A stretch of DNA of 38,293 nt from positions 1 to 38,293 of the forward strand of contig NW_021835848.1 of assembly GCF_006345805.1 (NCBI RefSeq), read 5' to 3'. Shown here piece by piece: positions 5,902-35,444 of this stretch; within the stretch, counting starts at the first letter, position 1; every line of letters begins with the position of its first letter. Under the pieces are notes generated by a model. That model searched no databases. It worked only from the letters and a program-made list of their open reading frames with translations, and was not told the DNA's origin. The stretch comes from Octopus sinensis (Eukaryota). The position numbers were made by a program, and so were the translations under genes.

Positions 5902-6420
5902 ATCTTAGAAGAATGGGCTAAAGAAGATATTTCTAAAGCCAATATACTGATTATCCACTTATAATCCACTTTCTACAGGAAAAATTGAACTGAAAATCGG
6001 GCAACTAAGGGGCTTCATCCTATATTTGTTAGTAGTAAACTCATTACTGCTTGCTTACAGGGAACTGGTAACCATTACAAGATGTAGCGGCGAAAAGTCA
6101 ACAGGTTGTTCTGAGACTGACCAAGGAATGTTTATTTTTAGATATAAATGATGTACTTAAATGTAGTTGTGTTTTTAGCTTCTGCTTTTTCCATAAACGC
6201 ATGTGAGTATTTTATTTATATCCCCCGTAAGCTCTACTGAAGAAGAATGTATCCTTTATAGGGATTAATTCCGAAATTGATTCAATATAGAGATAACGAA
6301 ATTTAAATTTGCTAAAGGTTAGTTGCCCGATTTTCAGTTCAATTTTTCCTGTAGCAAGTGGATTATAAGTGGATATATATTGGCTTAGAAAATATCTTCT
6401 TTACCCTTTCTTATAAGATT
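5902..6420 (+). mobile_element. short Penelope-like element terminus: about 105-bp inverted arms (5902-6008 / 6319-6419) around a hammerhead ribozyme, ending in (TA)n
   Basis: arms are reverse complements (inner 57 bp with one mismatch); HHR fold at 6232-6292; 3' end abuts (TA)n 6422-6520; PLE identity inferred from architecture. Confidence 0.65.
6232..6292 (+). ncRNA. type I hammerhead ribozyme (PLE type, palindromic stem III)
   Basis: stem I ctcta/tagag; CUGAAGA 6237-6243; stem II gaat..atcct/aggga..attc; GAAA 6273-6276; stem III ttga-t-tcaa; AUA cleavage triplet 6285-6287; stem II closing pair is an A-C mismatch. Confidence 0.75.
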
Positions 6421-6421
6421 T

Positions 6422-6520
6422 TATATATATATAATATATATATATATATATATATATATATATATATATATATATATATATATATATATATATATATATA
6501 TAGTATATATATATATATAT
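6422..6520. repeat. (TA)n microsatellite
   Basis: direct reading. Confidence 0.95.
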
Positions 6521-6827
6521 TCATTAAGTAAGTGCGAAGGTGGCAGTATAAGTTGTTCTTGTTAGATTTTTCTTTTATCGATAGAAAACGTAGCAGAAAA
6601 TCCCATCTGCTCCAAGTGTCCCCTTTTTCGATTTGCTTTTCTCTGTCTATTTAACCCACCCCTTCAATTTTTCTCCACTTTACATTTACCTAATATATTG
6701 GTCTCATTCGTATTCCTATTGACTAGGTACCTAATAATCAAGGAAAACCAGTCGGAAAACCCTTCTCAATATCTCAATACTTTTTTACCGTTTTAACCAA
6801 GCATCGGGGCGACTGAAAATCGTGTAG

Positions 6828-7395
6828 ATATATATATATGTGTGATATATATATATATATATATATATATATATATATATATATGTATGTATATGTATGT
6901 ATGTATGTATGATGTATGTATGTATGTATGTATGTATATATATATATATATATATATATGAATGTATATATATAATATATATATGTATGTATGTTTATAT
7001 ATAGTATATATATATATTATATATATATATATGAATGTATATATATATATATATGTATGTATGTATATATATGTATGTTATATATATATATGTATGTATA
7101 TATATATGTATGTATATATATATATATGTATGCATGTATATATATATGTATGTATGTATATATATATGTATGTATGTATATATATATGTATGTATATATG
7201 TATGTATGTATGTATATATATATATATATATCTATATATATATATATATATATATGTATGTATATATATATATATGTATGTATGTATATATATATATATG
7301 TATGTATATATATGTATGTATGTATGTATATATATATATATATATATATATGTGTGTGTGTGTGTGTGTGTGTGTGTGTGTGTGTGTGTGTGTGT
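6828..7395. repeat. compound (TA)n/(TATG)n/(TG)n microsatellite
   Basis: direct reading. Confidence 0.95.
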
Positions 7396-7697
7396 GGGAG
7401 GCTCAATGGCCCAGTGGTTAGGGCAGCGGACTCGCGGTCGCAGGATTGCGGTTTCGATTCCCAGACCGGGCGTTGTGTGTGTTTATTGAGCGAAAAACAC
7501 CTAGAAGCTCCACAAAGCTCCGGCAGGGAGTGGTGATCACTGCTGTTCTCTTTCACCACTCTTTTTCTCACTCTTTCGTCTGTTGGCCTGCTCGCTTAGC
7601 CAGCGGGGTGGCGTCGTTCGAAGGCTAAAACAATGCGAACGCATTGTGACCAGCGATGTGTAGCAACATCTGATGGTCTGGTCGGTCACGTGATAGT
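7396..7697 (+). mobile_element. full-length tRNA-derived SINE family B (short-tail variant, about 300 bp) inserted in microsatellite
   Basis: A box tggcccagtgg 7407-7417; B box ggtttcgattcc 7450-7461; body shared with 1-100; 3' end ggtctggtcggtcacgtgata(gtgata). Confidence 0.85.
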
Positions 7698-8204
7698 GAT
7701 ATATATATATATATGTGTATATATATATATATATGTGTGTATGCATATATATATGTATGTATATATATATATGTATATATATATATGTATGTATATATAT
7801 GTATATATATATATGTATGTATATATATATATGCATGTATATATATATATATGTATGTATATATATATGTATGTATATATATATACATGTATGTATATAT
7901 ATATATATATATGTATGTATATATATATATATATGTATGTATATATGTATGTATGTATATATATATATGTATGTATATATATATATATGTATGTATGTAT
8001 ATATATATATATGTATATATATGTATGTTTATATGTATGTATATATATGTATGGTATAATATATATGTATGTATATATATATATGTATGTATATATATAT
8101 ATATAGTATGTGTATATATAATATATATATATATATAATATATATATATATATACGTATTATATATATATATATATATATCTATATATATATATATATAT
8201 ATAT
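7698..8204. repeat. compound (TA)n/(TATG)n microsatellite
   Basis: direct reading. Confidence 0.95.
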
Positions 8205-32020: not shown

Positions 32021-32217
32021 TATATATGTATATATATATACATATATGTATATATGTATATATATATATACGTGTGTGTATGTATATATTGTACATATAT
32101 GTATATGTGTATACATATATATATGTATATATATATATATATATATATATATATATATATATATATAGAGAGAGAGAGAGAGAGAGAGCGAGAGAGAGAG
32201 AGAGAGAGAGAGAGAGA
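32021..32217. repeat. (TA)n followed by (GA)n microsatellite
   Basis: direct reading. Confidence 0.95.
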
Positions 32218-32454
32218 AATAGGCAGAGAGAAAGGAAGAAAGATAAGTTCGAGAGACCTGACCTTATCAGAATTTTCTACATTTTAGAGAGAATGTGAAA
32301 TAATTCATCGACTATTTTCAGTCCAAAATTTACATGCTAATATTTACAACTATATGTATTTCAAACTCCTCAAAACCCTGAAACCTCCGAATCAGGTCTC
32401 AACTCTAAATGCAGTTTGAAGTCATACTCATCCATGCACTCATAGATGCATGCA

Positions 32455-32547
32455 TATATACATACATGCATACATACATACATACATACATACATACATA
32501 CATACATACATACATACATACATACTACATACATACATACATACATA
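32455..32547. repeat. (CATA)n microsatellite
   Basis: direct reading. Confidence 0.95.
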
Positions 32548-34285
32548 ATGGCTGCAACTTGATTTCAAGTAATGCCACCGGTTCTAAAATATGAGTAATA
32601 CAGAGGTGAAAACGATTGACGCCAGGAATAGTTCTGAAGGATTATCAATCACGTTGACACATGCCTTCATTCCGCTATGGAAATTGTGTTTGAGACTTTG
32701 CCTTTGTGGACTACGACCAAACATTGTTTGCAACACATAATAGAGATGTTAAAATTCAAGTAATGTCTTTATTTGAAGCTTTCTAACATGAGGAAAGGCT
32801 ATACGCAGATCAAGTGCCATTCTCTGAACGAACAGCGAATGCATTCTCTTAAAGACAAATGCGTCTAGATCACTGGATGCAAATGGAATCAAAGGCGTTA
32901 CACCTAGTTTTCTTTCTCCAAGAGAGGTGTTTAAACAAAGACTAGGGGTCCTCTTGCACCCATAGCTATTAGATGCCCTCTGATGCTACTCAGTTCATCC
33001 GCATTTTTGTTTTTCATCCGGTATGGTGCACACCAAAGACCATCCTCTCTACCTTACAGGCTTGGTAGGCTTGGCGGTATAACCACCGACGACCCGAACA
33101 AGGAACAGGTGGTGTTAGGTTACATATTGCTAGTAGCACTAAGATTGACTTAACAATACATATGTTCATACATACAGGAAAACATTCACGTGTGCATAAG
33201 TTTCTGAATAATGCGTGGGACTCTTTGTGTATTCTGAAATATTACTCTCACGATGAATATCATTATTAACTCTAGTGCAAGAAACACATAATTCAAAATT
33301 CATTTTAATTTATATTCTTTAATCACATATGATCGATGTTTTCTTGTTAATTTCTAAAAGCGAGAAACATGTCTTCCAGCATTGAATTTTCTTGTGTCCG
33401 ATATTTAGACGCGTTGTCGCCAATAAGTGATTATTGTTGCTACTATCGTAGTCCAATCAGAACAATTATATATTATTTATTGATATTTTGTTAAATTATG
33501 TAAAAATTGATGACAAATATTTCTATTACAATGCAGGTGAATATAATATCTTTTTTTCCGATGTTGCTTATAAATATTCATTTACTCAATTATTTATGAA
33601 TTTATTGCATCGGCTCCGACTTAGTTCATATCTCATAAAATATTAGCAGCAGAGGAACTTCAGCTCTATGTCTAAACATGCTTAAAATCTGGCTAAAATC
33701 ACGCTCTGCCGTCTTCGAAAAGGTAGAATACGTTAGATAATATAATTCCGTATAAGCTATGCCTTTTAAATAGAGGCGCTGACCAGATTTGAAAATTCTT
33801 TTGTCATTTACCTGATCGACGCTAAAGATAATAGTTCTTGTAAAGCATTTTATTTTAGGATGGTTCAGTTCAATGTAATGTTCTTAGTTATTTTCGTGGC
33901 TGTGGTATTTATGCTGGATAGTAGAAATAGGAAAGAATATATACTAGGTTAGGTAAGAAAGGCCATGCATTTGTTTCACATCAACTACCATATATTGGGC
34001 AATGGAAACACGTGTAGGTCGACCTAACCACAAACATGCGGTATGAAATTGTAAAATAAAAGGAAATAAGTTTTGTGAATGTACCAGTCTCCATATTCTC
34101 TATCGTTATAATTACTGTATATATATGTATATATATATATATATATATATATATAATATATATATATATACATATACATAAGTATATGTACTTACTTACA
34201 TCTATTCGTATATATATATTATATATATATATATATATGTATATATTATATATATGTGTGTGTGTGTGTGTGTGTGTGTGTATGT

Positions 34286-34928
34286 ATATGTGGGCACAGG
34301 ACGTCACGAAGCATGTACAACAAAAATAAGAAGTACGAGTACATAAAATATGAACTATTTTTTCGAACAACGAAAGACACAAATGGAAAACAAGACAAAC
34401 ATTACAAAAAATGGCCCTTCATCAGTTGTTGGCTGTTTTTCTACTCTCGTATTTCGAACATTTCACAACAAAATACGCTTTCGATAAAACAGTTGCTCCC
34501 GCAAAGCAAATTAAATAAAATTTGGGATTTTGCAGGGGTCAAAATTGGTAACACAAACAGGACAGTGACAACAAACAGGAAGGGCTACTAAGCCTAAACG
34601 AGGTTGTGGTGGCGAACGTGTAAATGAAGCTTGGACAGGAGACAGACAAGAACACGTCTTCTTTGATCCAGCTACGACGCAGAGCAAGAAAGAAACACAA
34701 GTTAGGAGAAGAAAGATGGCCGATGGTCATGTGGGAGCCACGTGAGTAAGGGAGGAAGAGTGAGGGAAATGAGTGACAGGATAAGTGAGAAAAAAAAACA
34801 GGAGGGGGAGAACGGGAGAAAGGAAGAGAGAAACATATATATATATATATATATTATATGCATATGTGGGAACAAGACGTCACAAAACGTGTACAACAAA
34901 AGATACGAAATACGAGCACATGGAATAT
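34286..34928 (-). mobile_element. PLE-like island with partial tandem duplication of its terminus, each copy starting at a microsatellite
   Basis: 34286-34351 ~ 34862-34928 (atatgtggg..ca.gacgtcac.aa...tgtacaacaaaa.ata..aa.tacgag.acat); minus-strand ctgatgaaggg near 34415-34426. Confidence 0.5.
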
Positions 34929-35444
34929 ATGGATGGATGTATTGTTACCCAAAATTATTTGCTTCGTGAACAGGTAAAGGTCAGCTTATGTCAGCTTAAA
35001 TATTCAATGGAGATTTCTGTGTTGCATATTTTGTTCTCTCTCCGTCAAATTGTTGCTTTATATTTTTAATTTAACTGTATTTATTATCAGCGTATAGCAT
35101 TATTTGATTCACTTCCTTGATTTTCTTTTTTGTTATTTTTTTATTCTTTATAAATCACTTTATTGCTAATATGAGAAGTATTCTACATTATAACACAGTT
35201 TCTTCAGTGCATGAATAGCGAAATACAACTACTAAAATGTATTATAATACAAATAAGCGAAACGGATATTTAAACACGTGGTACCTTTTGACCCATCATC
35301 TGACGAGACTCATCTACAGTTACGATGAACCACAATTACTTGTACAGTATCTCACACGCGAGGCACCGGTGCACGATAGGTTGAAACGATCATAGTGAAT
35401 ATTAAGCAGTGTCGTAAATTCCATTTTCGTTTTCATATCATATA

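What the first reader, a model, noticed from the sequence alone, without database searches (positions are those of the whole stretch)
5902..35330. A community of short, sequence-unrelated, hammerhead-bearing elements living inside (TA)n microsatellites
Seen: 130-550-bp unique islands recur between (TA)n tracts. Two hold complete type I hammerhead folds (6232-6292, 11318-11378). Others hold decayed or variant ones that keep stem I/II complementarity: 9551-9586, 9832-9860, 15490-15527, about 15690-15710 minus, 22925-22970 minus, 35296-35329. The stems differ between copies while the pairing is kept, which looks like covariation across families. Established: Penelope-like elements carry type I hammerheads with short palindromic stem III in their pseudo-LTRs, and non-autonomous retrozymes exist. 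Inference: this is a dense, multi-family set of TA-targeting, mostly non-coding PLE derivatives that standard annotation would mask as simple repeat; whether it has been described in octopus I cannot check.
Basis: partly seen in the sequence, partly recalled or inferred. Interest (0 to 1): 0.8.

Follow-up and report, generated by a model that had tools for sequence, protein, structure and literature searches.

The report
Hammerhead-bearing Penelope fragments in TA repeats
The short hammerhead-ribozyme-shaped islands between the TA repeats are real, and most are truncated tail ends of an already described class of jumping genes (Penelope-like elements), while two are protein-free 430-490-base units that were likely copied into TA repeats by the same enzymes.

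Summary
Partly confirmed. Two complete type I hammerhead folds sit where stated (2 hits against 0.017 in shuffles). Of the six 'decayed' sites, two carry family-fixed core variants (9551: U6; 15490: U3-A8), one is a truncated stub, one is real but longer (35296-35398), one is a mariner transposon end (22925) and one is single-copy and unproven (9832). A fifth intact fold at 31785-31850 was missed. Three families (9551, 11318, 15490) run upstream into RT/GIY-YIG reading frames, so they are 5'-truncated ends of autonomous Penelope-like elements (PLEs), not non-coding derivatives. Two (6232, 31850) are ORF-less head-to-tail units of 487 and 426 nt with the full PLE insertion signature (retrozyme-like). 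Element ends abut (TA)n in 134 of 157 cases (background 4%). 61 of 64 head-to-head insertions carry the PLE 'tail' at exactly one end, none at both. A 600-kb sample extrapolates to about 1e5 folds genome-wide. The class is published (PMC4209133), including a TA-targeting, hammerhead-bearing octopus PLE (PMC8557442 supplement), and this scan noted the same kind in other genomes. New members of a known kind; cleavage and circular RNA untested.

The parts
5826..6005 (-). Family B, inverted arm carrying most of the tail
6007..6425 (+). Family B, sense arm of an ORF-less 487-nt head-to-tail unit, ends in (TA)n at the short end
6232..6292 (+). Type I hammerhead of family B, predicted cut after 6287
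9503..9665 (+). Family C, 3' stub of a Neptune/Nematis-type PLE; hammerhead 9551-9586 with fixed U6
9832..9860 (+). Hammerhead-like look-alike, single copy, unproven
11192..11420 (.). Family A, head-to-head pair of 3' stubs of a Hydra-clade PLE (no tail at either end in this copy)
11318..11378 (+). Type I hammerhead of family A, predicted cut after 11373
11882..12093 (.). Family G, head-to-head stub truncated downstream of the family's hammerhead
15094..15587 (+). Family H, 3' stub of a Neptune/Nematis-type PLE with an inverted tailed arm at 15094-15146; hammerhead 15490-15527 with U3-A8 core
15583..15846 (.). Family I, tailed arm 15583-15710 (minus, truncated inside the hammerhead) and short arm 15793-15846 (plus)
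22895..23130 (-). 3' end of a mariner-type transposase remnant; not a hammerhead
31589..32020 (-).
31785..31850 (-). Type I hammerhead of family O, core identical in 22 of 22 matches
35220..35435 (+). Family K, old stub (73-79% identity) with a long-stem-II hammerhead at 35296-35398; parent not found

Best explanation
The islands are 5'-truncated 3' ends of several Penelope-like retroelement (PLE) families plus two ORF-less head-to-tail units, all lying in or beside (TA)n tracts, and they were likely made by PLE reverse transcriptase-endonuclease proteins that nick TA repeats and copy an RNA which was likely still uncut at its hammerhead. Shown: family structure, reading frames upstream of A, C and H, head-to-tail continuity of B and O, fixed 3' ends, TA flanks, one-tail rule, and that most copies span the predicted cleavage site. 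From the literature (PMC11167929, anole PLE in vitro): both target strands are nicked and extended, reverse transcription starts at two internal RNA sites that bound the 'tail', and hammerhead cleavage is not needed. Inferred here: the two nicks of one event prime two cDNAs, one at each start site; both stop early and are joined head-to-head, which gives short inverted islands with one tail. B and O would be mobilised in trans like animal retrozymes. The hammerheads would cut slowly, as dimers through the palindromic stem III or with protein help; family C's (U6) is predicted to be weak.
For: ORF links: C, 16 of 19 long loci have both GIY-YIG-type C-terminal residues upstream and the stub downstream (read by motif); H, 6 of 19 loci have the ORF end in sense upstream, Pfam GIY-YIG E 1e-5; A, Hydra-type frames in 4 of 4 loci translated, alike to Hydra-1_Obim. 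Intact 775-781-aa RT-GIY-YIG ORFs exist in the genome. B: 14 of 29 loci continue upstream into the previous unit, none into shared foreign sequence. O: two whole tandem units in L328/L329. Two 3' end classes per family, tails of about 21-109 nt; 61 of 64 classed two-ended insertions have one tail, 3 none, 0 two (p 2e-15 against independent choice). 3 of 63 untargeted arms start within 10 nt of the cut site, 49 of 63 span it. 17 canonical and 11 variant folds in 600 kb against shuffle means 0.1 and 0.4.
Against: No cleavage, RNA end or circle was observed. Pfam did not recognise family A's frame. B and O loci were ranked by likeness to the window copy (29 and 19 of about 1000 candidates each), so a rare ORF-bearing parent is not excluded; the mobilising family is not identified. 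Ten unclear rows and one truncated-tail row were set aside in the tail count, and L015/L016 look like one insertion held twice (60 of 63). BLAST misses very short stubs, which could hide 5' ends at the cut site. The anole study saw no strand difference in start sites, so the coupling of the two sites is my inference.
Confidence: 0.85

Rival explanations
1. [quoted passage not shown]
For: Head-to-tail permuted units with a hammerhead in each unit; GC 34% and 38%, 65% paired as circles; folding z -4.9 and -7.4; copies span the cut site. Model proposed in PMC4209133 and PMC7229834.
Against: A linear read-through transcript of a partial tandem explains the same DNA. The hammerheads are the PLE minimal type, not the canonical loop-loop type of expressed retrozymes. 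Eight of nine Xenopus dimers did not cleave in vitro (bioRxiv 2026.07.22.740005).
Confidence: 0.3
2. The inverted islands arise by fold-back: one cDNA stops, self-primes and copies itself.
For: Self-priming was proposed for rotifer Penelope inverted junctions (PMC3846280 passages); stem II supplies a hairpin near many junctions.
Against: Fold-back needs the second arm to lie wholly inside the first, so the tailed arm must reach further 5'. In family A it does in 12 of 28 and does not in 16 of 28 (my reading).
Confidence: 0.08
3. The islands are MITEs (non-autonomous DNA transposons) whose terminal inverted repeats happen to hold the motif, with TA target duplications.
Against: Arm lengths vary from copy to copy, ends are unequal (tail at one end), many copies have one arm only, and long copies lead to RT/GIY-YIG, not a transposase.
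Confidence: 0.02
4. The folds are chance matches in AT-rich DNA.
For: Holds for 22925 and possibly 9832.
Against: Shuffles give 0.017 per window and 0.1 per 600 kb; cores are kept across copies.
Confidence: 0.01

Closest known systems
Minimal hammerheads of metazoan PLEs (Cervera & De la Pena 2014, PMC4209133; parts 1-2 of 4 read)
   Same: Thousands of dispersed single motifs in many consensus families, short stem I, extra base after A9, palindromic stem III, U3-A8 variant, opposite-strand pairs 100-700 bp apart, attributed to truncated PLEs.
   Different: Density here is about 1e5 per genome by extrapolation against 2,000-9,000 reported (descriptors differ); stem II up to about 100 nt; a very abundant family with fixed U6.
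Hydra-clade PLEs, Hydra-1_Obim of Octopus bimaculoides (Craig et al. 2021, PMC8557442; passages, section 11, supplement rows)
   Same: CxCX5C linker, no CCHH, (TA)n preference, hammerhead in the 3' end, inverted copy and one-sided tail; protein visibly alike to family A's parent.
   Different: Family A's hammerhead stems differ from the listed one, so it is a sister family; tail 66 nt rather than 30-40.
Neptune/Nematis PLEs (defined in PMC8557442)
   Same: CX2-5CxxC linker before a C-terminal GIY-YIG in the parents of C and H.
   Different: Neptune versus Nematis not resolved (no tree built).
Non-LTR retrozymes of animals (PMC7229834 passages; bioRxiv 10.64898/2026.07.22.740005 parts 1-3 of 5)
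   Same: ORF-less, low-GC, self-paired head-to-tail units with a type I hammerhead, co-occurring with PLEs.
   Different: B and O are mostly dispersed 1-2-unit insertions that show the PLE integration signature itself (two start sites, inverted arm, TA target); minimal-type hammerhead; circles not shown.
Poseidon_Ac of Anolis (Frangieh et al. 2024, PMC11167929; parts 1-2 of 4)
   Same: Two internal start sites bounding the tail; uncut RNA as template.
   Different: That study reports no strand difference in start sites; here the two ends of one insertion almost always use different sites.

Membership tests
Type I hammerhead (PLE minimal type) | CUGANGA / GAAA / UH core with stems I and II | tested here: met
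   B, A, O exact; H with U3-A8
Type I hammerhead (PLE minimal type) | A at core position 6 (family C) | tested here: not met
   56 of 56 have U6; an A6C natural variant had low activity (PMC3088659 section 8)
Type I hammerhead (PLE minimal type) | Palindromic stem III able to pair between two copies | tested here: met
   duplex energies -8.7 to -15 kcal/mol for B, A, H, O; weak for the window's mutated C (-1.2) and K (-4.8) copies
Type I hammerhead (PLE minimal type) | Self-cleavage at UH | not testable with these tools
   needs in vitro assay
Rfam hammerhead families | Gathering score | tested here: not met
EN+ Penelope-like elements (families A, C, H) | RT plus C-terminal GIY-YIG frame upstream of the repeat | tested here: met
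   C and A read by motif, H by Pfam and tblastn
EN+ Penelope-like elements (families A, B, H, I, O) | Variable 5' truncation, inverted 5'-truncated copy, tail at one end | tested here: met
Hydra clade (family A parent) | CxCX5C linker, no CCHH, CxxC and CxH around E and N, (TA)n target | tested here: met
Hydra clade (family A parent) | RWK and DKT motifs, placement in an RT tree | not tested
   loci held do not reach the N-terminus
Neptune or Nematis clade (C, H parents) | CX2-5CxxC linker | tested here: met
Neptune or Nematis clade (C, H parents) | RT phylogeny separating the two | not tested
   no reference set
Non-LTR retrozyme (B, O) | No protein | tested here: met
   B longest Met-ORF 32 aa; O has a 141-codon open frame (5 of 1000 shuffles) but no third-position bias, a frame-breaking indel in 4 of 19 copies and no Pfam match
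Non-LTR retrozyme (B, O) | Tandem units each with a hammerhead | tested here: met
   O: L328/L329; B: partial tandem with two folds in L054 by coordinates; most copies are monomers
Non-LTR retrozyme (B, O) | Canonical hammerhead with loop 1-loop 2 contacts | tested here: inconclusive
   folds are of the PLE minimal type; no loop 1 was modelled
Non-LTR retrozyme (B, O) | Abundant circular RNA | not testable with these tools
   only assembled contigs were on offer
MITE | Fixed equal terminal inverted repeats, transposase parent | tested here: not met

The most novel reading that the evidence does not exclude
This genome holds about 100,000 hammerhead folds, among them young ORF-less retrozyme-like RNAs (B, O and others) that travel as circles and are written into TA repeats by PLE enzymes; their insertions show directly that PLEs mobilise retrozymes, and the 61-of-64 one-tail rule shows that a PLE protein dimer primes both target nicks on one RNA at its two start sites.
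Probability: 0.25. Interest if true: 0.65.

Novelty: new member of a known kind. Interest (0 to 1): 0.37.

Why it matters
The class is known, so the finding itself is modest. What it adds: (1) a large, annotation-invisible hammerhead load, testable by a genome-wide descriptor scan; (2) ORF-less units that carry the PLE integration signature, which is more direct support for 'PLEs mobilise animal retrozymes' than co-occurrence and repeat homology; (3) a count-based rule (one tail per two-ended insertion) that constrains the still unresolved second-strand step of PLE integration; (4) a highly successful family with a core change predicted to cripple cleavage, a natural test of whether PLE hammerheads work as enzymes or as folds.

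Tried and rejected
Rfam over the whole window at E up to 10 was swamped by microRNA hits on TA repeats; 114 lower rows were not shown. The repeat finder was swamped likewise. My first descriptor found nothing because it allowed no extra base beside stem II. I first took family A for a 450-nt non-autonomous element because several copies start at one place; that place is an internal TA tract and longer copies reach an ORF. Expression: no RNA holder listed for family B; laying contigs of three runs guessed to be RNA and one of unknown kind showed a B-related variant at depth 80-150 whose pieces overlap head-to-tail, but RNA is a guess and contigs cannot show ends, strand or circles: no verdict. 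tblastn of PLE proteins found no frame at B, K or O loci apart from separate neighbours. The 141-codon frame of O was rejected as a gene. 5' ends at the cut site: not found. A protein-level genome search for family C's parent was not done, so its full-length ORF is not held. A recalled paper on dimer cleavage of small PLE hammerheads was not held (nothing read). Print searches for an octopus account of these families; they found PMC8557442 (one Hydra and Naiad families), a Rfam count of 235 hammerheads in giant squid (PMC6962438 passages) and an O. vulgaris repeat annotation (PMC13282606 passages, no hammerhead term searched there). Repbase/Dfam, the supplements of PMC4209133 (not opened), PMC7229834 (unreadable) and the bioRxiv preprint (closed) may list these families.
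Full report
The window is contig C12319 of G000, a 2.72-Gb assembly with about 30 chromosome-scale contigs. That it is an octopus is inferred, from the size, from recalled repeats and from a protein alike to Hydra-1_Obim; no call names the species.

Observation. A type I descriptor allowing one extra base beside stem II finds two exact-core folds, at 6237 and 11323, against a mean of 0.017 in 60 dinucleotide shuffles of the non-repeat sequence. 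With longer stem II and variant cores it finds five: 6237, 9555, 11323, 15493 and 31847 minus; the last was not in the finding. Family searches sort out the other listed sites. 9551 (family C) has U at core position 6 in 56 of 56 copies. 15490 (family H, 96-99% identical copies) has U3-A8 in 28 of 29 matches, a known active covariation (PMC3088659 section 8; PMC4209133). 15690-15710 (family I) is cut off inside the motif. 35296 (family K) is an old copy with a long stem II, whole in 7 of 19 relatives. 22925 is the end of a mariner-type transposase remnant. 9832 has no second copy. The seven islands compared do not align with each other. Rfam finds none at gathering score.

Chance and density. 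Sixty 10-kb blocks at fixed grid positions (600 kb) hold 17 canonical-core and 11 variant-core folds (27 distinct), against shuffle means of 0.1 and 0.4 over 10 rounds. That scales to 1.2e5 folds (Poisson 95% range 0.8-1.8e5; canonical only 7.7e4); clustering widens this range. 18 of 27 have (TA)4 within 250 nt downstream, against 54 of 293 other CUGANGA sites (p 3e-7). At base level, 134 of 157 mapped element ends are followed by (TA)3 within 6 nt, against 4.3% of random positions. The window is richer in TA (8.0% against 2.6%) and in folds (5 in 38 kb) than the sample.

What the families are. The genome holds GIY-YIG frames in quantity (5029 candidates, 150 scored, 147 matches) and intact 775-781-aa RT-GIY-YIG ORFs. 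Family H copies run upstream into such a frame in 6 of 19 loci (Pfam GIY-YIG), with a CX4CxxC linker. Family C: of 19 long loci, 18 have the window stub downstream and 16 have both it and GIY-YIG-type C-terminal residues upstream (read by motif). Family A extends through an internal TA tract and a 3' region of about 1.1 kb into a frame with CxCX5C and no CCHH (4 loci translated), the Hydra-clade definition (PMC8557442 section 11); Pfam did not recognise it, but it is visibly alike to Hydra-1_Obim, which that paper's supplement lists with (TA)n preference and a hammerhead. So A, C and H are 5'-truncated ends of autonomous PLEs of at least two clades.

Families B and O differ. In B the 3' tail is the element's own 5' start; the unit is 487 nt; 14 of 29 loci continue upstream into the previous unit and none into shared foreign sequence. 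O is a 426-nt unit with two whole tandem units in L328/L329. Neither shows a PLE frame. O has a 141-codon open frame (5 of 1000 shuffles reach it), but substitutions fall 13/25/22 on the three codon positions, 4 of 19 copies carry a one-base indel and Pfam finds nothing. Both fold better than shuffles (z -4.9, -7.4). They fit non-LTR retrozymes in DNA anatomy (PMC7229834; bioRxiv 10.64898/2026.07.22.740005), with circles untested. Only the best-ranked 29 and 19 of roughly 1000 candidates each were seen.

Mechanism. Each family has two fixed 3' ends, short and tailed, about 21 (C), 37 (H), 66 (A), 74 (I), 78 (O) and 109 (B) nt apart. In vitro work on an anole PLE showed that both target strands are nicked and extended, that reverse transcription starts at two internal sites bounding the tail, and that hammerhead mutants insert normally (PMC11167929). 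Here 61 of 64 classed head-to-head insertions have one tailed and one short end, 3 have two short ends, none has two tails (10 unclear rows and 1 truncated row set aside; two rows are probably one insertion). One-sided tails are described qualitatively (PMC8557442, PMC3846280); the near-strict rule implies that the two primings of one event take different sites, which is my inference. In family A the tailed arm is the longer in 12 of 28 and the shorter in 16 of 28, which argues against fold-back copying. Of 63 untargeted arms, 3 start within 10 nt of the cut site and 49 span it: templates were mostly uncut or re-joined, though very short stubs escape BLAST. Covariation is seen between related families: stem I swaps in C-like folds and stem III swaps in a B-related family.

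Known and new. PMC4209133 already describes thousands of dispersed minimal hammerheads in many families, the extra base, the palindromic stem III, U3-A8 and opposite-strand pairs, and ties them to truncated PLEs. This scan's notes on other genomes reach the same reading; I looked after forming mine, and there are none for this genome. I found no print account of these particular families or of the density, but repeat libraries and several supplements were not seen. Verdict: real, new members of a known kind; interest 0.37.

Noticed in passing
L251 (minus strand, folds 497 nt apart) and L037:624 and 987: Two further tandem units (497 and 363 nt) with a hammerhead in each unit; more retrozyme-like families, one from the unbiased sample.
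   Followed up: partly
L122-L128, 3' regions: The young intact 781-aa PLE family also appears to carry a U3-A8 hammerhead, read by eye; it has a long upstream ORF1 of about 479 aa.
   Followed up: partly
window 34290-34665 (minus): Repeat family in which a GAAA..UA segment lies upstream of CUGAUGA; topology unresolved.
   Followed up: no
window 9990-10160, 10680-10886, 10945-11110: TA-flanked islands, the first two sharing a 3' end, with partial core motifs; almost no relatives in the loci held.
   Followed up: partly
window 11735-11850: Repeat stub with CUGACGA on the minus strand; relatives lack a clear GAAA.
   Followed up: partly
window 10290-10575 and 16867-17152: Two inverted copies (92%) of a repeat with a 101-nt internal duplication; Helitron-like by recall only.
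   Followed up: no
window 26759-27316: Element with short terminal inverted repeats, seen in the sequence; mariner-like by recall only.
   Followed up: no
L042:1677-1953 in runs X1, X2, X4: One contig of a B-related variant with 147 replaced bases is at depth 80-126 in three runs guessed to be RNA (two studies) and absent from X18; no verdict on expression.
   Followed up: partly
window 15094-15846, L176, L039, L048, L160: Stubs of different families stack directly on one another in the same TA tract, since each insertion leaves TA ends.
   Followed up: partly
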